UHGV virus genome: UHGV-1493261
Length of the DNA: 64,000 bases
Reading direction: 5' to 3' (one strand)
Source: a virus
In this document: in pieces, positions 10,488 to 64,000 of the stretch
Layout of the letters: every line of letters starts with the position of its first letter
Numbering within the stretch: position 1 is the first letter of the stretch
Notes under the pieces: model-generated
The model's database searches: none
What the model saw: the letters and a program-made list of their open reading frames with translations, nothing else
What the model was told of the DNA's origin: nothing
Translations under genes and position numbers: made by a program

Positions 10488-10745
10488 ATGGACGAGCTAT
10501 TCGCATTGGTGATTGCATTAACGTTCTTACTGTCCTTGATTATCAGCTCGCTTGTGTTGTTGCTGGTGTGGATAGCTGTTCCCGAGATCAATAACCACAA
10601 GGCGCTCGTTGTCGTGATTATCCTAGGTCTGAGTGCTTCCCTTACTCTTCACTATTCCAAACAGGAGTATAATCCTAACAAATATTACAAGACATTAGCG
10701 GACAAGTATCATGAGTTTAAGAATGAAAGAGCTTCCGGTAAATGA
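10488..10745 (+). CDS. Hypothetical membrane protein
   Basis: 85 aa with two hydrophobic helices; AGAGGTG RBS. Confidence 0.5.
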   Translation: MDELFALVIALTFLLSLIISSLVLLLVWIAVPEINNHKALVVVIILGLSASLTLHYSKQEYNPNKYYKTLADKYHEFKNERASGK

Positions 10746-10965
10746 CAAGAAGTACATGTACAAGGTTCTGCTGAGCCTCGGGGTGTCACAATCTGGGCTG
10801 GCTCGTTTATTGGATTGTTCTAATGTTGTGAACTACTGGGCGAAGGGATATCGTGTTGTCCCCCGCTCATTCCGTCGCTTCATCCTGGTGTTACAGTTCA
10901 TCAAGAAGAAAGGGCTGATGGAAGAGTTATTGCAATTTATTAAAGAAGAGGAACGCAAATGCTAA
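10711..10965 (+). CDS. Small helix-turn-helix protein (start uncertain)
   Basis: HTH-like GVSQSGLARLLDCSNVVNYW; candidate ATGs at 10711, 10723, 10759. Confidence 0.4.
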   Translation: MSLRMKELPVNDKKYMYKVLLSLGVSQSGLARLLDCSNVVNYWAKGYRVVPRSFRRFILVLQFIKKKGLMEELLQFIKEEERKC

Positions 10966-11618
10966 CAGAGTGGCAGAAGATGGAGTTCGAGCGGGCGTTC
11001 AACGTTTACTGTGTCTTCATGGCGATCAAGCTGCACTTCACCACTAAGGACTTCGATTACAGCTTGTATGGACCTATGAATTACAAGTTCGAGACGTTCT
11101 TGGCGAAGGAGGCCGTGTGCAAACAGTTTGCTCGCCTTGCCCGTCGGTTCGAGTCGTCACAGGGTGAAGTGGTAGAGAACTACATCATTGCCAACTTCAT
11201 CAAATCACCCAAGACATGGGTGACGACATTGCTTACACGCCAGGCTCAGGCCAATTATGATGAATACCGTAAGCTGTACGAGAACTTCACATATAACTTC
11301 CTTGAGGAGTTCGAGCGGGAGATGATCCCTGCCATAAGGGAGCGCAACTGCACCTTCATTGAGTACATCAAGGGGACGGGTACAGGTCATCCACCGTTGC
11401 TAACAGACATCATCATCAAGAAGTTCCCGATTTGGTTCCTTGTCGGTCTGAACAAGATCGTTGGTTTCATTCATCTATACGATACGATTCTGCGTGATGA
11501 CATCTACTGGAACTCAGAGGCGTTCTTGCTCAGGAAGACGAATGCTGTGGTTCCGGATGAGGATACCACATATTCAAAACAGAGACTCCGTGAGCTAATA
11601 CAAGCCCACGGAATCTGA
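10959..11618 (+). CDS. Putative helicase loader (T4 gp59-like)
   Basis: 219 aa (T4 gp59 is 217 aa); lies between ligase and the hub block; weak remembered similarity only. Confidence 0.35.
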   Translation: MLTEWQKMEFERAFNVYCVFMAIKLHFTTKDFDYSLYGPMNYKFETFLAKEAVCKQFARLARRFESSQGEVVENYIIANFIKSPKTWVTTLLTRQAQANYDEYRKLYENFTYNFLEEFEREMIPAIRERNCTFIEYIKGTGTGHPPLLTDIIIKKFPIWFLVGLNKIVGFIHLYDTILRDDIYWNSEAFLLRKTNAVVPDEDTTYSKQRLRELIQAHGI

Positions 11619-13613
11619 TTACCATTCCCACAGGATGCGGGAATTATCTGTTTTGTTCTCAGGCTCAAGATATGAGCTGTTGAAGTTATTGGTCGTGTTG
11701 ATCCTCTTAGAAGCATCCACATTCTGCTGTACTGGCATCACGACGCTGGCTGGAGGCGGTGAATAGCCGCCTTGTACTTGCTCGATATTAGACAGCGCCC
11801 TCCCTTGTGATGGCATGGCCCCACCCAGAGTACCACCCCCGATAGAACCATACGCAGCTTTCAGCTGAGAGGTGCGGTCATTAGCCATATTCTTGTGATC
11901 TGAAGACACACCAGAAGGTATCGGAGTCAGCGTCTGTGGATCGTTGTTCGGTTTTGGATCGTTGTTCGGTTTTGGTGACGTCTGTGGATCGATGTTCGGT
12001 TGTGGTGACGTCTGTGGCTGCGAGGTCTCTGCCACATTAGGAGACGGATTCTCATCAGTGTCAATCAGCATAGACTGGCGAGCCTCATCCATCTTCTGCT
12101 TCGCAGCCTGTCCACCCAGAGCGTCAGGGATGATGCTGACGAACTTGTCAACGATATCGAACATCGCATTGGTGATTGTGTTCAGCATGTTGAAGAAAGG
12201 TTTCTTCACATTTTCGGCAAATCCCTTCTTGATTTCGTCAATAACCTTGTTGGCCACACCCATGCCCTCGTCGATCACACTACTGATACCCCCTGTGATC
12301 CAGTCTACCAGCTTCATCAATTCCGACTGAAGGTTGTCTGCCAGCTTGCCAGGGATATCCGTAAGAGACGTGTCTCTCCCGATCCCTGCAAACAAGTCGT
12401 TGCTAATCCAGTCGATAATACCATTCAGCCAACGAGCGGGAGCCTCGGTGATCATGAGGGTGTATTTGCGCAGGGTTTCTCCCGCCTCGGTATCAAAGCC
12501 AAAGATCTTGGACACCCAGTCAAATATATCACCAAATCCACCAACCAGTTCTGATATCCCCGCCCGTACTCGGTCAACTATCGTGACAGCACCTTTACCC
12601 AGGATCTCCTTCGCATCAATGAAGCCTTTACCGAAGTCCCAGATCATAGACAGGAGAGCCAGTGGACCGACTTTCAGGAACTTGAACACCTTCCCAAATG
12701 GGCCCAGAAGTTTGGTGATACCTTCTCCCAGCTTGGAGAACATGCCGAGGAAAGTCCCGACAACACCACCGATGATCTTGAACGGCTTGAGCAAGAAGCC
12801 CTTCAGTGCATTCAGGCCAAGCATGGCCGCCACAGCAGCCCCGATACCGGAGGAATCGTCTTTCTGGTCATCGTCTTTGGGTATAACAGAACCCGCCTGA
12901 GGATGACCACCCGTTTCTTTGTCGGTTTCCCCACGGCGCATCTCGTCCTTCTCACGCCACTTCTGGTCTTCATCAAAGATGCGTGTCAACACTCCAACGA
13001 TATGACCGCCCGTGCGTCCAATCTTGTTTTCAATGCTAGACAAGCGAGTAAGGGTGTCATCGGAGTTCTTTTTCAGTTCAGCAACATCGTCACGAACCTC
13101 GATCATCACTCCGTCGATCATGTTCAAGAATGATCCCACGCGGACCAGAGACACACTCTGCTCGTCCATGCGCTTGAGGGTGTCATCATTGGCAGACTTC
13201 AGCTGGTCTGAGATCAGGTTAAGATACTCCAGGGACGTGTCATCTGTTGGCATGCGGGTGATCTCACCGAGGCGGTCAATCTTGCCTGCGATATTCTCCA
13301 GTTCCCGATTGCCTTCGTTACCCACATCGACAGTATCCTTCATCCATACGCTGAAGTCGCGGGTGAAGATCGGAGACATGCGAGCGAATCCCATGACGAT
13401 CTCATTGACTGTCGGGATACGGATTTCAAATGGCTTGGACTCGGCCTTGGTGCCCTGTTTAGTGGCAGATTCCAGCTTGGCCAGATTCTTGTTCATCCGG
13501 TCAAGCTGTCTGTTGGTTTCATTCTGAGCGCGGAGTTGTTTGCGCTGCATCATCTCCGCCTTGATCTTGTCTAGAACTTTGACAACATCATTGTTCGTTG
13601 CTTCCTGTGCCAT
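11619..13613 (-). CDS. Putative tail tape-measure / baseplate hub protein (gp29-like)
   Basis: 664 aa. Coiled-coil N-terminus, Gly-rich hydrophobic centre, Pro-rich repeat linker (PQTSPQPNIDPQTSPKPNNDPKPNNDPQT). Position matches the T4 hub block. Confidence 0.4.
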   Translation of the reverse strand: MAQEATNNDVVKVLDKIKAEMMQRKQLRAQNETNRQLDRMNKNLAKLESATKQGTKAESKPFEIRIPTVNEIVMGFARMSPIFTRDFSVWMKDTVDVGNEGNRELENIAGKIDRLGEITRMPTDDTSLEYLNLISDQLKSANDDTLKRMDEQSVSLVRVGSFLNMIDGVMIEVRDDVAELKKNSDDTLTRLSSIENKIGRTGGHIVGVLTRIFDEDQKWREKDEMRRGETDKETGGHPQAGSVIPKDDDQKDDSSGIGAAVAAMLGLNALKGFLLKPFKIIGGVVGTFLGMFSKLGEGITKLLGPFGKVFKFLKVGPLALLSMIWDFGKGFIDAKEILGKGAVTIVDRVRAGISELVGGFGDIFDWVSKIFGFDTEAGETLRKYTLMITEAPARWLNGIIDWISNDLFAGIGRDTSLTDIPGKLADNLQSELMKLVDWITGGISSVIDEGMGVANKVIDEIKKGFAENVKKPFFNMLNTITNAMFDIVDKFVSIIPDALGGQAAKQKMDEARQSMLIDTDENPSPNVAETSQPQTSPQPNIDPQTSPKPNNDPKPNNDPQTLTPIPSGVSSDHKNMANDRTSQLKAAYGSIGGGTLGGAMPSQGRALSNIEQVQGGYSPPPASVVMPVQQNVDASKRINTTNNFNSSYLEPENKTDNSRILWEW
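11937..12024 (-). repeat. Intragenic tandem repeats encoding a Pro-rich linker
   Basis: Plus strand shows ggatcgttgttcggttttg twice, then gtgacgtctgtggatcg(a/t)tgttcggtt(t/g)tg twice. Confidence 0.6.
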
Positions 13614-50299: not shown

Positions 50300-50444
50300 G
50301 TTAGGTTCCTCAGTGGGTTAGCCATATGGGGTATTTAGGCTTCCCGCTTGGCAAAGCCTGGTTTGTACAGGACGCATATCGGAAATGTTGGAGGAAGGTT
50401 TTCATAGATACCCCACACTGGTTGTATGGGGTATTTAGGAGGGA

Positions 50445-59044: not shown

Positions 59045-60235
59045 ATGGCCGATTTTCTGAGTCAATACACAGGTCAGCAGATTGATGCAATCCTTTCTTC
59101 TGTTGACGATAAAGTAAGTAAGTCTGATGTTGTCAACGATTTCTCTGTTGATGACCCGTTGTTCCCTCCGTCAGCTCATTTGACATACGAGCTGAAGCGT
59201 TCTGTGGATAATATCTACGACACACTGGAAAACAAAGTGATCCGCACCGACGGCGGTGAACAAACGATCAACGGGAGAAAGACTTTTGTTGCGTTGTTGA
59301 CCGCCAACGGCGGCCTGACTGTTCCGGCTGGAAAGAAACTGTCTATCGCGGATGAGCCTACGATAGCGACAGATGGTGTTAACCTGAGCATGTTGAGAAA
59401 GCATGGTGTCAGTGAAGACACTACCCCACCTGGTTCTGGTTTGGCTGGGGAGTTGTTGACATCCGGATATTACAAATTCAATTTGGATTTCACCAAATTG
59501 TCTGCGTATACCGGATCAACGTTGCCGACTTCAGTTCCAGTACAAACAGATTCTGGAGCGCGTTATTGGACAATGACTGCATTTTTTGATGCGTTGTTTG
59601 CAGACAACCGATTTAATGGATATGTGGCAACGACAGCGTATGATGCAGATATGCTGAGTTTAGAGTCCCAGATTAATAACATCAACACATCGTTGAACGG
59701 GAAAGTCAACACCTCGACTTACAACACGAAGATGGCGTCATTGGATTTGAGTATCTCCAATATCAATACGTCTCTGGGTAATAAAGTCGAGGTTAGCACG
59801 TACAACACGAAGATGACATCTCTGGATAACAGCATCAGTTCTCTTTCCAGTGATAAAGTTAGTGTATCAACGTATAATGCCAAGATGACCTCTGTCGACA
59901 ATAGTTTAGGGAACGCCGTTTATCGTACCAAAACGAATTTGTCTTCTTACACGGTTTCGGCTTCTGGGACGACGGCTCTTCCAGATTTTGATTTGGTGAA
60001 CCTTTGTCAAATACTGGTAACTGCGCAATGGGGGACAGGTAACGTTGTTGATACATATCGAGTAACCATAACTCGTGACGGAACGATCAAATCAGAGTTG
60101 TTGGTTCAGAAAAGTACGAGCGGTACAGTGACGTTCACAGGGGCTGTGGTGGGTGGTAAATTGAGAATTTCCGTTGTTAATGCGAATACAACAACTGCCT
60201 GTTCGGTCGATTATTCTATTGTAGCTTCTTTCTAA
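59045..60235 (+). CDS. Tail fiber protein with internal 21-aa tandem repeats
   Basis: 396 aa. Repeats NINTSLNGKVNTSTYNTKMASLDLSIS / NINTSLGNKVEVSTYNTKMTSLDNSIS / ...VSVSTYNAKMTSVDNSLGN. Confidence 0.6.
   Translation: MADFLSQYTGQQIDAILSSVDDKVSKSDVVNDFSVDDPLFPPSAHLTYELKRSVDNIYDTLENKVIRTDGGEQTINGRKTFVALLTANGGLTVPAGKKLSIADEPTIATDGVNLSMLRKHGVSEDTTPPGSGLAGELLTSGYYKFNLDFTKLSAYTGSTLPTSVPVQTDSGARYWTMTAFFDALFADNRFNGYVATTAYDADMLSLESQINNINTSLNGKVNTSTYNTKMASLDLSISNINTSLGNKVEVSTYNTKMTSLDNSISSLSSDKVSVSTYNAKMTSVDNSLGNAVYRTKTNLSSYTVSASGTTALPDFDLVNLCQILVTAQWGTGNVVDTYRVTITRDGTIKSELLVQKSTSGTVTFTGAVVGGKLRISVVNANTTTACSVDYSIVASF
59682..59915 (+). repeat. ~63-nt tandem repeats within the tail fiber gene
   Basis: About three diverged copies encoding the STYNTKM-containing heptad-like unit. 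Confidence 0.6.
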
Positions 60236-60236
60236 A

Positions 60237-60280
60237 ACTAAATACCCCCTAGATGACATGAATACATTTAGGGGTATTAC
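60237..60280 (+). promoter_or_regulatory. Promoter-like CTAAATACCCC motif with hairpin leader upstream of the tail spike gene
   Basis: CTAAATACCCCCTA...TAGGGGTATT inverted repeat ending 5 nt before the ATG at 60283; same architecture at 63485-63523 and, on the minus strand, at 50326-50439. Confidence 0.4.
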
Positions 60281-60282
60281 AA

Positions 60283-63200
60283 ATGGCCAACAAACCAACA
60301 CAGCCTCTTTTCCCTTTGGGTTTAGAAACTTCTGAGTCTTCGAATATAAAAGGCTTCAACAACTCCGGCACTATTGAGCATTCCCATGGTGCCGTAATGA
60401 CATTTCCTGAAGATACTGAAGTTACAGGTCTTCCATCTTCTGTACGTTACAATCCTGATAGTGATGAATTCGAAGGTTATTACGAAAATGGTGGTTGGTT
60501 GCCGCTGGGTGGCGGTGGCATCCGCTGGGAAGTCCTTCCGCATGCCTCTACGGCAACGCTCACTGAAGGGCGAGGCTATCTCATTAATAATACCACAGGG
60601 GCATCTACAGTGGTTCTCCCTTCCCCTACGCGTATTGGGGATTCCGTTACTATTTGTGACGCTTATGGGAAATTTGCCACTTACCCATTGACCGTGTCTC
60701 CTTCTGGAAATAATTTGTATGGCTCCACTGAAGACATGGCTATAACAACTGATAACGTATCAGCAACGTTCACTTGGTCTGGACCTGAACAAGGTTGGAT
60801 TATTACATCCGGCGTCGGTCTTGGCCAAGGTCGTGTCTACAGTCGTGAAATCTTTACAAAAATTTTGGCGTCTGAAACAAGTTCTGTCGCTCTCAATACC
60901 CCACCAACAATCGTGGACGTGTATGCTGATGGAAAACGTCTTGCGGAATCCAAATATTCACTAGATGGGAATGTAATCATTTTCAGTCCTTCTTTGCCAG
61001 CCAGCACAGAACTTCAGGTGATTGAATATACTCCTATTCAATTGGGTATTGGGGATGGTTCTGGCTCTTCCACGATTACCTGGGTCTATAATGGGGGTTC
61101 AGCGATTGGTGGTGAAACCGAAATCACGTTGGACGTCGTTGTTGATGATGTTCCGGCCATTGATATAAACGGAAGTCGCCAGTATAAAAATCTGGGATTC
61201 ACATTCGATCCATTAACCAGTAAAATCTCTCTTGCACAAGAACTGGAACCAGAGGATGAAGTTGTTGTAATTATCAATGGAACACCAAACATCTATAATC
61301 AAATTGATTATACTTTGCGGGAAGTTGCTCGTGTAACCAATGTTAAAGATACAGAGGTCGTTTATTTTAGTGTTGGTGCTGCGTTAAGTGGGTATAAAGT
61401 TATTTATGACAAGGAGACGCAAAGGGCTTATCCCTTGCCTGCTGATATTGTCCCTGGTACTACTGCTGTCAGTCTTAGTTCTTCCGCTGTACTTGTACAT
61501 TCAGCGGGTTCTGTAGATCTCGGGGAATTGGCTGTATCTCGTGAAGAGTACGTCACATTGTCCGGGTCATTTGATACCGGTGTAACAGTTAATACCAAGA
61601 ATGAACTGGTTGTCTTTACTGACGGCAAGTACCGTTGGGATGGGGTGTTGCCTAAAGAAGTTTCTGCTGGTTCAACCCCTTCGACAACTGGTGGAATTGG
61701 TTTAGGGAAGTGGGTTAGTGTTGGCGATGCATCACTTAGATCAGAGTTGTCAAAAAGTGATGGTTTTTTATTGATTGGTGGACTGAAAGAAACATTTTAT
61801 CGAACATTTGATAACATCCAAATCATGAAGTCAGATGATAATCTAAAAGATGGGGATGTAGTTTCAACCAAGGGGTTTTATACAAAAGGTGATTTAGGTG
61901 GTTCGACATACCGAATAACAGCATCTGCTACGGCGGATGGTTGTAATGTGATTGCATTAGATAACGGTTTGTTCGCAGTTAACACTAAAACCCGCGTGCG
62001 TATCCAAGAGTTGGGGGTAGTAGATAACCCATCCGTGGATCAGTCTGCAATATTTAACACAGCTATGTCATACGCTGGTGGGGAAGTTATCATTGATGGT
62101 ATCTCAATTTTACTTACAGCAACCGTAACAGTTGCACGGTCTATGCATTGCGTGAACGGGGGGAAACTAATAACTACCTCAAGTACATACGCAAATATTG
62201 TGAGGATTTCAAAGGATAACGGATTTTTCACTTTAAACATAGACGCTAATAAAGCGGCGTGTATGCCAGTCAGGGTGACAGGGAACGGTAATAAATTTAC
62301 AGCAATTTCCATTACTGGACTTTATGCACCTTCTGGTTCCGGGACGGGAGTTATTGGAGTCCAGTTTCAGGGGTCTAATAATGTCGTGGATTCTATTGTT
62401 GGTTCTGACTGTGTAAACACCGGAAACACAAACGCGTCAATGCCGCAGTTGTTTATGTTCTATGATGGTTCTAAGAATAACTACATAGGGTCTGTGTATG
62501 CCTCTGGGTGCTGCTCTATTTTAAACTCAGCACAAGATATAGAAGTTACGGTGGGCAGGATGTATCTTGTTGACTGCCAGGACAATGGGATATATGGCGG
62601 TGGGCGTATTCATGTCGATTACTTCCATTACGATGGTAGTGAGGAAGCAATCGCTGGCTCATCCCTAGCGGACCTTACCATAACTTACGCAGAAGTTGGT
62701 GGTGAAGGGCTTGGTGCAGTTTCGTATGCCGATATGACCCGTATGAGCATAGACCATTTGCACATATTTAGGGGTACGGATGGGGATACCCCAAAATCAG
62801 TGGTAAATGCCCGAACAGTCGTCACAACGGCTGGCGTATTATCTATTGGGCGTTTAACAGGTGAGATTGAAGGTGTACGTCTTTTTTCATGCGACAAAGG
62901 TATGTTAAATCAGTTTATTCTTGGGGCGTGCGATATTTTGTTTGTATATAACGCTTCCCGTATGAACGAGCGGATAGCCGACATACGCAACGTCAGGTCG
63001 TTTCGTATCGGCGACATGAGCGTGAGATTTTGGGATAAAGGTAATGCTTTGGCTAGTACATCCCTTAATGTACCCTTTGATTTCCCTGTTTCCCCGTCAG
63101 CACCGAGCACATTAAACAGTCTTAACTTCATCGGTTTGATGGTTGACCAGGCAACACCTCAGCCGAATGTAACATTTCAAGGGCGCGGTCTGAGAAACTC

Positions 63201-63423
63201 TAATGTATATGTCAGACACGGTTTATGGCAGACAAATATTGGGCCATACCTGCGAGAAATGACTTATTCGCTAGGCTACAACGGGGATAATGGGATACAA
63301 CAAACACCGACAACGGGATACTGGCGTAAAGGTGAAGATTTTGCACTCATAAACGCTACTGCGGCTCCATTCCGGTTAAGGTGCACCGTATCTGGCACAC
63401 CAGGTACTTTTGTTGCCTATTAA
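60283..63423 (+). CDS. Tail spike protein (long form with N-terminal anchor domains and C-terminal beta-helix)
   Basis: 1046 aa. Residues ~360-490 are near-identical to the N-terminus of the next gene; C-terminal half is beta-helix-like and Gly/Asn/Val-rich. Confidence 0.65.
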   Translation: MANKPTQPLFPLGLETSESSNIKGFNNSGTIEHSHGAVMTFPEDTEVTGLPSSVRYNPDSDEFEGYYENGGWLPLGGGGIRWEVLPHASTATLTEGRGYLINNTTGASTVVLPSPTRIGDSVTICDAYGKFATYPLTVSPSGNNLYGSTEDMAITTDNVSATFTWSGPEQGWIITSGVGLGQGRVYSREIFTKILASETSSVALNTPPTIVDVYADGKRLAESKYSLDGNVIIFSPSLPASTELQVIEYTPIQLGIGDGSGSSTITWVYNGGSAIGGETEITLDVVVDDVPAIDINGSRQYKNLGFTFDPLTSKISLAQELEPEDEVVVIINGTPNIYNQIDYTLREVARVTNVKDTEVVYFSVGAALSGYKVIYDKETQRAYPLPADIVPGTTAVSLSSSAVLVHSAGSVDLGELAVSREEYVTLSGSFDTGVTVNTKNELVVFTDGKYRWDGVLPKEVSAGSTPSTTGGIGLGKWVSVGDASLRSELSKSDGFLLIGGLKETFYRTFDNIQIMKSDDNLKDGDVVSTKGFYTKGDLGGSTYRITASATADGCNVIALDNGLFAVNTKTRVRIQELGVVDNPSVDQSAIFNTAMSYAGGEVIIDGISILLTATVTVARSMHCVNGGKLITTSSTYANIVRISKDNGFFTLNIDANKAACMPVRVTGNGNKFTAISITGLYAPSGSGTGVIGVQFQGSNNVVDSIVGSDCVNTGNTNASMPQLFMFYDGSKNNYIGSVYASGCCSILNSAQDIEVTVGRMYLVDCQDNGIYGGGRIHVDYFHYDGSEEAIAGSSLADLTITYAEVGGEGLGAVSYADMTRMSIDHLHIFRGTDGDTPKSVVNARTVVTTAGVLSIGRLTGEIEGVRLFSCDKGMLNQFILGACDILFVYNASRMNERIADIRNVRSFRIGDMSVRFWDKGNALASTSLNVPFDFPVSPSAPSTLNSLNFIGLMVDQATPQPNVTFQGRGLRNSNVYVRHGLWQTNIGPYLREMTYSLGYNGDNGIQQTPTTGYWRKGEDFALINATAAPFRLRCTVSGTPGTFVAY

Positions 63424-63429
63424 AACTAA

Positions 63430-63455
63430 CCCCGCTTTGGCGGGGTTCTTATTAT
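63430..63455 (+). terminator. Intrinsic terminator
   Basis: AACCCCGC-TTTG-GCGGGGTT followed by CTTATT. Confidence 0.55.
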
Positions 63456-63484
63456 ACCTTTGTTCATAAATTTTATTAGTTCAG

Positions 63485-63523
63485 CCTAAATACCCCATAT
63501 TGGTCATCCTTTATGGGGTATTA
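63485..63523 (+). promoter_or_regulatory. Promoter-like CCTAAATACCCC motif with hairpin leader upstream of the second tail spike gene
   Basis: CCTAAATACCCCAT-(14 nt)-ATGGGGTATT, then ATG at 63526. Confidence 0.4.
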
Positions 63524-63525
63524 TC

Positions 63526-64000
63526 ATGATTTCTCAATTCAATCAACCACGCGGCTCCACTTCCATAGAAGTTAACAAACAATCTATCGCTCGAAATTTC
63601 GGTGTCAAAGAAGACGAAGTCATTTATTTCACTGCTGGTATTGATCTCAGCGGATTTAAAGTAATTTATGATGAGTCTACCCAACGGGCTTATTCTCTTC
63701 CTTCAGGTATTGTTTCAGGAACCACTGCTGTTAGTCTTAGTGCTGACGCTGTTCTTGTGCACTCAGCTGGTTCTATAGACCTCGGAGAATTAGCCGTATC
63801 CCGTGAGGAATATGTTACATTGCCCGGGTCCTTTAATTCTGGTGCTACGCTTAATGCTAAAAATGAAATACTTACCCATACAACAGGAAAATATCGTTGG
63901 GATGGTGAATTACCTAAAATAGTGCCTGCTGGTTCAACTCCAGATAGTACTGGCGGTGTTAAATTAGGAGCATGGGTTAGTGTTGGTGATGCATCACTGC
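63526..64000 (+). CDS. Tail spike protein (second paralog), 3'-partial at window edge
   Basis: N-terminus MISQFNQ...VIYDESTQRAYSLPSGIVSGTTAVSLSADAVLVHSAGSIDLGELAVSREEYVTLPGSF...GKYRWDGELPK...WVSVGDASL duplicates the internal module of the upstream spike. Confidence 0.65.
   Translation, partial: MISQFNQPRGSTSIEVNKQSIARNFGVKEDEVIYFTAGIDLSGFKVIYDESTQRAYSLPSGIVSGTTAVSLSADAVLVHSAGSIDLGELAVSREEYVTLPGSFNSGATLNAKNEILTHTTGKYRWDGELPKIVPAGSTPDSTGGVKLGAWVSVGDASL

What the first reader, a model, noticed from the sequence alone, without database searches (positions are those of the whole stretch)
61360..61745. Duplicated ~390-nt module shared by the two tail-spike genes
An internal segment of the long tail spike is highly similar at protein level to the N-terminus of the next gene (63620-64000, truncated by the window end). 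Ackermannviridae-type phages attach several spikes through shared N-terminal domains, so this duplication probably marks the attachment module, with the divergent C-termini giving receptor specificity. It is also a hotspot for recombination-driven host-range exchange.
Basis: seen in the sequence. Interest (0 to 1): 0.5.

Follow-up and report, generated by a model that had tools for sequence, protein, structure and literature searches.

The report
Shared head domain of two tailspikes
The repeated ~400-base segment is real, but it is the already well-described "head" domain pair (D1-D2) that tailspike genes of Ackermannviridae phages share, which docks one spike onto another and marks where receptor-binding parts get swapped; it is ordinary for this phage family.

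Summary
Window 61341-61736 (inside the 1046-aa spike gene 60283-63423) and 63603-63998 (start of the next gene, ATG at 63526) are 72% identical in DNA without gaps. The proteins are 66% identical over 151 residues (E 2e-64), and these are the only two copies in the window. The genes are orthologues of phage CBA120 TSP4 and TSP3, on an Agtrevirus-like backbone. The module is the published D1-D2 (TD1-TD2) head, of which D2 is Pfam PF18668. In TSP3 the head is the N-terminal docking unit. In TSP4 it is internal, and attachment is done by the 335 residues before it (anchor plus XD1-3, 94% identical to solved 7REJ). The duplication is old (dS about 1.1, dN/dS 0.26, longest exact run 14 nt), not a recent or gene-converted repeat. 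D1 groups by spike position, whereas D2 is mosaic. All 620 matching phage records lose similarity at 61728-61784. From about 61636 the TSP4 body is 89% identical in DNA to the spike of an unrelated small myovirus from gut metagenomes. So the D2/neck end is a recombination joint, as published. Already known; low interest.

The parts
60283..63423 (+). tsp4 orthologue (1046 aa): anchor-XD1-XD2-XD3 hub, D1-D2 head, neck, beta-helix body
   Evidence: ORF. aa 1-338 match CBA120 TSP4-N (7REJ) at E 1e-208, and aa 344-502 match the TSP4 D1-D4 structure 5W6H at E 9e-70. It is syntenic with CBA120 orf213.
60283..61287 (+). TSP4 N-terminal assembly region: anchor domain (aa 1-75), GGGG linker, XD1 (80-178), XD2 (189-249), Gly-rich linker, XD3 (265-335)
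   Evidence: 314/334 residues are identical to CBA120 TSP4. Domain limits are transferred from PMC8825819.
61294..61548 (+). Copy A, D1 (TD1) of TSP4, aa 338-422; contains the GTTAVSL motif
   Evidence: Alignment. Limits are transferred from CBA120 TSP1 D1 12-96 and TSP4 TD1 344-421. D1 groups by spike position.
61549..61722 (+). Copy A, D2 (TD2) of TSP4, aa 423-480; Pfam Tail_spike_N
   Evidence: PF18668 matches aa 417-482 at E 1.7e-21, 76.5 bits against a cut-off of 25. Its history among relatives is mosaic.
61600..61760 (+). Recombination joint: end of D2 plus neck helix (YRWDG...GSTP..TGG...WVSVGDASLRS)
   Evidence: Similarity to Ackermannviridae relatives ends at 61730-61755. No match among 620 phage records passes 61784. 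89% nt similarity to the E217-like metagenome phage starts at 61636. The same motif occurs in K1F gp17 and in the Skatevirus LPST10 spike.
61756..63420 (+). TSP4 receptor-binding body (aa 492-1046), predicted right-handed beta-helix
   Evidence: AF2 gives pLDDT mostly about 75-95 for model residues 172-600 (TSP4 aa ~506-934), falling below 50 from model residue 647. Foldseek matches are generic tailspike and depolymerase beta-helices. There is no close relative in 50,697 phage records. P0001 from gut metagenomes is 93% identical.
63428..63447 (+). Terminator-like hairpin after tsp4; the horizontally shared segment ends here (63445)
63526..64000 (+). 5' part of the tsp3 orthologue (first 158 codons; runs off the window)
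   Evidence: Matches CBA120 TSP3 structures 5W6F and 6NW9 at E 7e-85. aa 1-58 are 100% identical and aa 1-158 are 85% identical to CBA120 TSP3.
63556..63810 (+). Copy B, D1 of TSP3 (aa 11-95), N-terminal docking domain; contains GTTAVSL
   Evidence: The docking role comes from PMC8825819 and PMC11414711.
63811..63984 (+). Copy B, D2 of TSP3 (aa 96-153); Pfam Tail_spike_N
   Evidence: PF18668 matches aa 90-155 at E 5e-27.

Best explanation
The repeat is the D1-D2 'head' (TD1-TD2) domain pair carried by paralogous tailspike genes of Ackermannviridae. Here the genes are the orthologues of CBA120 TSP4 (long gene) and TSP3 (next gene) on an Agtrevirus-like backbone. The two copies come from an old tandem duplication of a spike gene, and both are kept by purifying selection. 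In TSP3 the head is at the N-terminus, and its D1 face docks the trimer onto the XD3 domain of TSP2 within the branched four-spike complex (inferred from CBA120 experiments). In TSP4 the head is internal. It links the anchor/XD1-3 hub, which does the attaching, to the neck and the beta-helix body. The distal part of the module (the end of D2 plus the neck, about 61600-61760) is a sequence shared by spikes of many unrelated enterobacterial phages. It serves as the joint at which receptor-binding bodies are exchanged by recombination. This window's TSP4 body arrived, or left, through that joint.
For: Shown here:
- Paralogy is significant.
- Both proteins match CBA120 TSP4 and TSP3 crystal structures, with the head in the expected places. 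Gene order matches orf213-orf212.
- PF18668 hits both copies.
- The module is also present in TSP1 of relatives, and TSP2 carries D1 only at about 36% identity.
- The duplication is old and constrained: dS 1.08, dN 0.28, dN/dS 0.26; identity by codon position is 74/79/52%. Orthologue dN/dS is about 0.1-0.25 in 10 of 12 module comparisons; the two outliers are 0.66 on almost no substitutions and 0.48 for the mosaic RPN242 TSP3 D2.
- D1 groups by spike position (84-100% within TSP4, 90-96% within TSP3, 60-74% across), while D2 does not.
- Breakpoints: relatives lose similarity at 61730-61755. None of 620 records extends past 61784. 89.3% nt identity to contigs L004-L006, which have an unrelated E217/Pam3-like baseplate context, runs 61636-63445.
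- The same body is fused to other N-termini, including a P22-type head-binding domain (PF09008) in P0003.

From the literature:
- Domain names and docking roles: PMC8825819 and PMC11414711.
- Recombination proposal at GTTAVSL/TD: PMC8432352 and PMC10791037.
- K1F similarity: PMC3184105.
Against: - No binding or assembly data exist for this phage. The docking roles are transferred from CBA120, a different genus.
- The function of the internal head in TSP4 has not been established by anyone.
- The exact crossover cannot be pinned down. Between about 61604 and 61730 the window is only 70-87% identical to either 'parent', so the true donors are not in the databases or the zone is itself mosaic.
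- The published candidate site (GTTAVSL at the end of D1) is not the breakpoint seen here.
- The AF2 model was uninformative for the head (pLDDT <50).
Confidence: 0.9

Rival explanations
1. One reading: the shared module is the attachment module of both spikes, each spike being fixed to the virion through it.
For: [quoted passage not shown] It does dock TSP1 and TSP3.
Against: In TSP4 the module lies after 335 residues that are 94% identical to the CBA120 fragment. That fragment was shown by ultracentrifugation and crystal structures to carry the baseplate anchor and the XD domains that bind the other spikes. A protein without AD-XD1 did not bind TSP2.
Confidence: 0.06
2. A recent segmental duplication, or a tract kept similar by ongoing gene conversion between the two genes of this genome.
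For: A close relative, RPN242, has a TSP3 whose D2 is of the TSP4 type: the stretch SGSFDTGVTVNTKNELVVFTDGKYRWDG is identical, and nt identity to the window TSP4 module is 80% against 72% for the window's own TSP3. Exchange between paralogues therefore does occur in the lineage.
Against: In this genome the copies are 68-72% identical in DNA, with synonymous sites near saturation (dS 1.08) and no exact run longer than 14 nt. Within-genome paralogue identity (69%) is no higher than between-genome paralogue identity (63-72%), while orthologues reach 76-91%.
Confidence: 0.02
3. The module, or its D2 half, is an accessory carbohydrate-binding unit that contributes to host recognition rather than to assembly.
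For: The Pfam family is named 'receptor binding N-terminal domain'. D2 of TSP1 has the fold of a chitin-binding domain (PMC3966878). This reading would give the internal TSP4 copy a role.
Against: The same paper states that no polysaccharide binding by such head domains has ever been reported. D2 is conserved across spikes with unrelated specificities, which does not fit a specificity determinant.
Confidence: 0.05

Closest known systems
CBA120 (Kuttervirus) TSP4/orf213 and TSP3/orf212, D1-D2 (TD1-TD2) head; PDB 7REJ, 5W6H, 5W6F/6NW9
   Same: The gene order is the same. The architecture matches: anchor-XD1-3-D1-D2-neck-body for TSP4, and D1-D2-neck-body for TSP3. TSP4 aa 1-334 are 94% identical and TSP3 aa 1-158 are 85% identical, with aa 1-58 at 100%.
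   Different: The genome backbone is Agtrevirus-like (96% to ZQ1/A221/AV101). The TSP4 body after the neck is unrelated to that of CBA120 and to every spike in 50,697 phage records.
Agtrevirus spike clusters (AV101, RPN242, YX22, LHE287)
   Same: These are the closest backbones and the closest TSP4 5' parts: 92-96% nt up to about 61730-61755. PMC10791037 notes the same small region of identity upstream of the beta-helix in tsp1, tsp3 and tsp4.
   Different: Their receptor-binding bodies differ. D2 of YX22 TSP4 is only 67% identical to the window's, although D1 is 100% identical.
Gamaleyavirus (G7C-like) two-spike complex, gp63.1/gp66
   Same: The whole D1-D2 module is found at 75% nt identity in phage PhAPEC5 (H46). 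The Pfam family is named after TSP1/Gp66. The same XD-domain branching logic is described in PMC8825819 and PMC10408124.
   Different: It is a podovirus with two spikes rather than four. It was not examined further here.
Junction motif in K1F endosialidase gp17 and in siphovirus and podovirus spikes
   Same: YYRWDG.LPK.V.AGSTP..GG.GLGAW.SVGDAALR lies between the particle-binding N-terminus and the enzymatic body. It is at K1F gp17 aa 178-215 and LPST10 spike aa 89-127, with 73-79% nt identity to window 61630-61740. The K1F similarity was noted as early as 2011 (PMC3184105).
   Different: Only the distal D2/neck part is shared. The N-terminal adaptors are unrelated (for K1F, T7 gp17-like by my recollection; not tested here).
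P22-type head-binding domain (PF09008) tailspikes
   Same: It has the same logical role, a conserved N-terminal particle-binding module followed by an exchangeable beta-helix body. P0003 joins this domain to a body 65% identical to the window's.
   Different: The fold family is different and there is no D1-D2. Here the similarity starts only after the neck.

Membership tests
Ackermannviridae tailspike head, D1-D2 (TD1-TD2) | Sequence homology of both copies to D1-D2 of the solved CBA120 TSP1, TSP3 and TSP4 structures | tested here: met
   TSP4 aa 344-502 match 5W6H at E 9e-70, with 4OJ5 at E 3.5e-66 and 6NW9 at 2.8e-59. TSP3 aa 1-158 match 5W6F at E 7e-85.
Ackermannviridae tailspike head, D1-D2 (TD1-TD2) | D2 matches Pfam PF18668 (Tail_spike_N) above the gathering score | tested here: met
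   76.5 and 94.2 bits against a cut-off of 25.
Ackermannviridae tailspike head, D1-D2 (TD1-TD2) | Position: N-terminal in TSP3/TSP1, after the XD domains in TSP4, directly before the neck and beta-helix body | tested here: met
   The TSP3 body lies beyond the window and could not be seen.
Ackermannviridae tailspike head, D1-D2 (TD1-TD2) | Fold of D1 (novel beta-sandwich) and D2 (chitin-binding-like sandwich), trimeric | tested here: inconclusive
   The AF2 model has pLDDT <50 over the head because the alignment held no head homologues. The fold is inferred from 80-85% identity to solved structures.
Ackermannviridae tailspike head, D1-D2 (TD1-TD2) | TSP3 head binds XD3 of TSP2 in a preformed TSP2:TSP4 complex | not testable with these tools
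   Shown for CBA120 only (PMC8825819). tsp2 lies outside the window.
T4 gp10-like XD branching hub (TSP4-N) | Anchor domain, GGGG linker, and XD1, XD2, XD3 in order, homologous to 7REJ | tested here: met
   E 1e-208 over aa 1-338. 314/334 residues identical, with GGGG at aa 76-79.
Recent duplication / gene-conversion tract | Near-identical DNA, or within-genome paralogue identity above between-genome identity | tested here: not met
   72% nt, dS 1.08, longest exact run 14 nt. Identity matrix.
Beta-helix tailspike depolymerase (TSP4 body) | Right-handed parallel beta-helix after the neck, with similarity to solved depolymerases | tested here: met
   Strand ladder with pLDDT about 75-95. Foldseek hits are all phage tailspikes or depolymerases, but weak (E 1e-5 to 1e-4, TM 0.2-0.36). 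Neither the enzyme class nor the substrate can be assigned.

The most novel reading that the evidence does not exclude
The receptor-binding body of this TSP4 is a subtype not present in any isolated phage on record. It has been exchanged recently (89% DNA identity over 1.8 kb) between an Agtrevirus-like Ackermannviridae phage and an unrelated E217/Pam3-like small myovirus of the human gut. The exchange went through the D2/neck joint and ended in the terminator hairpin. That would make this locus a clean, datable example of cross-family spike-body transfer and would imply a host O-antigen new to the family. A stronger version holds that the roughly 100-nt joint is selected at the DNA level as a dedicated shuffling site. 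That version is not supported, because synonymous divergence in D2 is as high as elsewhere.
Probability: 0.6. Interest if true: 0.3.

Novelty: already known. Interest (0 to 1): 0.15.

Why it matters
The module itself adds nothing new. It has been crystallised in CBA120 TSP1, TSP3 and TSP4, named (D1-D2 / TD1-TD2), given a docking role, and already proposed as a site for swapping receptor-binding bodies. The locus is useful as a worked example for phage engineering. It shows that D1 tracks spike position, so it should be kept when retargeting a spike. It shows that D2/neck is the natural splice point. It also shows that a body can move between an Ackermannviridae four-spike complex and a quite different myovirus baseplate.

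Tried and rejected
- AF2 of TSP4 aa 335-1046, using an alignment of the five body homologues, gave no usable model of the head (pLDDT <50). Head structure therefore rests on sequence identity to crystal structures.
- A sequence search of the TSP4 body against PDB returned only antibody chains with no stretch passing on its own, which are chance matches.
- tblastn of the body against 50,697 phage records gave one weak Vibrio phage hit at 32% identity.
- I recalled CTAAATAcCcc as a published late-promoter consensus for ViI-like phages, but could not confirm it. PMC3184105 says the late promoter was unidentified, and PMC3296691 gives no sequence. It is reported only as an enriched motif.
- Recent duplication or gene conversion within this genome is rejected.
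- Chance similarity is rejected.
- Minus-strand ORFs under the module (for example 61428-61628, 66 aa) were not pursued. They lie antisense to a conserved coding region and nothing supports them.

Full report
**What is there**

The last 3.7 kb of the window hold a 1046-codon gene (60283-63423, + strand). After a terminator-like hairpin (63428-63447) comes the first 158 codons of a second gene. That gene starts at ATG 63526 and runs off the window.

Even so, the two intervals it named are in register to within 2 nt.

**Check of the observation**

- BLASTP aligns aa 8-158 of the second protein with aa 335-485 of the first: 66% identity, 78% positives, no gaps, E 2e-64.
- BLASTN aligns 63603-63998 with 61341-61736: 72% identity over 396 nt, no gaps.
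- Codon shuffles never exceed 34% identity, against 68% observed over the 453-nt codon alignment.
- No third copy exists in the 64 kb.

**Identity of the genes**

The region matches 211 phage records by megablast, almost all Ackermannviridae. The rest of the window is 96% identical to Agtrevirus-like Escherichia phages (ZQ1, A221, AV101, LHE287).

In CBA120 the syntenic genes are orf213 (TSP4) and orf212 (TSP3), followed by orf211 (TSP2) and orf210 (TSP1).

For the long protein:
- aa 1-338 match the solved TSP4-N fragment 7REJ at E 1e-208. 314/334 residues are identical, with GGGG at aa 76-79.
- aa 344-502 match the TSP4 D1-D4 structure 5W6H at E 9e-70.

The second protein matches TSP3 structures 5W6F and 6NW9 at E 7e-85. 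It is 100% identical over aa 1-58.

Pfam PF18668 (Tail_spike_N) hits aa 417-482 of the first protein and aa 90-155 of the second, well above threshold.

The duplicated segment is thus the D1-D2 'head', called TD1-TD2 by other authors. This domain pair precedes the neck helix and beta-helix body in CBA120 TSP1, TSP3 and TSP4. TSP2 has D1 only (PMC8825819; PMC8432352). The relatives fetched here show exactly that pattern.

**What the module does**

According to ultracentrifugation and crystal structures for CBA120 (PMC8825819; summarised in PMC11414711):
- TSP4 is fixed to the baseplate by its first ~80 residues.
- TSP4 carries XD2 and XD3 domains that bind TSP2 and TSP1.
- TSP1 and TSP3 bind through their heads to the XD3 domains of TSP4 and TSP2.

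So the copy at the start of the second gene is a docking module. This is an inference by homology, supported by the 100% conservation of aa 1-58.

The copy inside the long gene is not what attaches that spike. There it sits between the hub and the neck. No role for the internal copy has been demonstrated. I take it to be a structural link and trimer unit inherited from the duplication.

**Age and selection**

- Between the two copies dS is 1.08 and dN is 0.28, giving dN/dS of 0.26.
- Identity by codon position is 74/79/52%.
- The longest exact run is 14 nt.
- Paralogue identity within this genome (69% nt) is no higher than between genomes (63-72%), while orthologues reach 76-91%.

This is an old duplication under purifying selection, not a recent repeat or a conversion tract.

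Exchange between paralogues does occur in the lineage. In RPN242, TSP3 has a D2 of the TSP4 type.

**D1 and D2 behave differently**

D1 groups strictly by spike position: 84-100% among TSP4 orthologues, 90-96% among TSP3, and 60-74% across positions.

D2 does not. YX22 TSP4 has a D1 100% identical to the window's but a D2 only 67% identical.

Synonymous divergence from relatives jumps from 0.02-0.2 in the 5' parts to 0.5-1.3 in D2.

This pattern fits D1 as the position-specific, partner-specific part and D2 as a shuffled part.

**The recombination joint**

- Similarity of the window to CBA120, YX22 and RPN242 runs from 59000 to 61730-61755 at 89-93% and then stops. It resumes at 63419.
- In a sensitive search with 60900-62600, 620 phage records match and none extends past window 61784. 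The end points of the long matches fall at 61728-61764.
- A piece of about 110 nt (61630-61740) matches at 73-79% in unrelated phages, including Kayfunavirus (with K1F), Skatevirus and other siphoviruses, and Providencia, Klebsiella and Enterobacter podoviruses.
- Translation shows the motif YYRWDG.LPK.V.AGSTP..GG.GLGAW.SVGDAALR in K1F gp17 aa 178-215 and in the LPST10 spike aa 89-127. The K1F resemblance was reported in 2011 (PMC3184105).

**The TSP4 body**

Residues 487-1046 have no relative in the phage collection except a 32% Vibrio phage hit, and no relative by sequence in PDB.

The large protein database returns the following:

| Protein | Identity to the body | Source / feature |
|---|---|---|
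| P0001 | 93% | 765 aa, gut metagenomes |
| P0002 | 67% | Citrobacter amalonaticus |
| P0003 | 65% | E. coli; P22-type head-binding domain PF09008 |
| P0004 | 49% | Providencia rettgeri |

P0001 lies in contigs with E217/Pam3-like baseplate genes, unrelated to Ackermannviridae. Yet its DNA is 89.3% identical to the window from 61636 to 63445. That stretch runs from inside D2 to 22 nt past the stop codon, within the terminator hairpin.

The three-way alignment shows:
- The window is about 100% identical to RPN242 tsp4 up to about 61600.
- Between about 61604 and 61730 it is 70-87% identical to either sequence.
- From about 61735 it is 97-100% identical to the metagenome phage.

The body has therefore been exchanged across phage families through the D2/neck joint. 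The true parents are not in the databases, or the joint itself is mosaic.

AF2 predicts a right-handed beta-helix, with pLDDT about 75-95 for model residues 172-600. Foldseek finds only generic tailspike and depolymerase helices (E about 1e-5, TM 0.2-0.36). No substrate can be named.

**Comparison with what is known, and verdict**

Each element of the finding is already published:
- The shared head and its structure: PMC3966878, PMC6517402, PMC8825819.
- Its docking role: PMC8825819, PMC11414711.
- The general rule of conserved anchors and horizontally moving bodies: PMC10408124.

What this locus adds is modest:
- The breakpoint is at D2/neck rather than at GTTAVSL.
- D1 and D2 have clearly different evolutionary behaviour.
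- The TSP4 body is new among isolated phages and shared with an unrelated gut myovirus.

The feature is real, ordinary for the family and already known. Interest is low.

Noticed in passing
window 60238-60248 and 63486-63496 (+); also 50328-50338 and 50428-50438 (-): The 11-mer CTAAATACCCC occurs 4 times, against 0.03 expected. Two copies lie 35 and 30 nt upstream of the tsp4 and tsp3 start codons, so it may be a phage late-promoter element. I could not confirm a published consensus.
   Followed up: partly
window 63419-63526: The intergenic stretch between tsp4 and tsp3 (terminator hairpin 63428-63447 plus the motif above) is 86-90% identical to the stretch upstream of tsp2 in CBA120, YX22 and RPN242. 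The spike genes therefore appear to have been duplicated together with their regulatory spacer.
   Followed up: partly
window 61741-63420; loci L004-L006: The TSP4 receptor-binding body is absent from 50,697 phage records. It is 93% identical in protein (89% in DNA) to the single spike of an E217/Pam3-like small myovirus seen in three gut metagenome assemblies, including a Hadza sample. More distant copies occur in Citrobacter, E. coli (with a P22-type head-binding N-terminus) and Providencia.
   Followed up: yes
L003 (RPN242) 10550-13099: In RPN242, TSP3 has a D1 of the TSP3 type but a D2 of the TSP4 type over SGSFDTGVTVNTKNELVVFTDGKYRWDG, and it then diverges before the usual neck motif. This is an example of exchange between spike positions within the module.
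   Followed up: partly
window 59045-60235 (+): The 396-aa protein upstream of tsp4 is the orthologue of CBA120 orf215, annotated hypothetical or tail fiber. It contains several imperfect ~20-aa repeats (..NTSLNGKVNTSTYNTKMASLD.., ..NTSLGNKVEVSTYNTKMTSLD.., ..SSDKVSVSTYNAKMTSVD..) and has no Pfam match above threshold.
   Followed up: no
hit H11 (OR844942.1): A record named 'Enterococcus phage Efm 3-10' (111 kb, unannotated) matches this Ackermannviridae spike region at 89%. This suggests a mislabelled or contaminated database entry.
   Followed up: no
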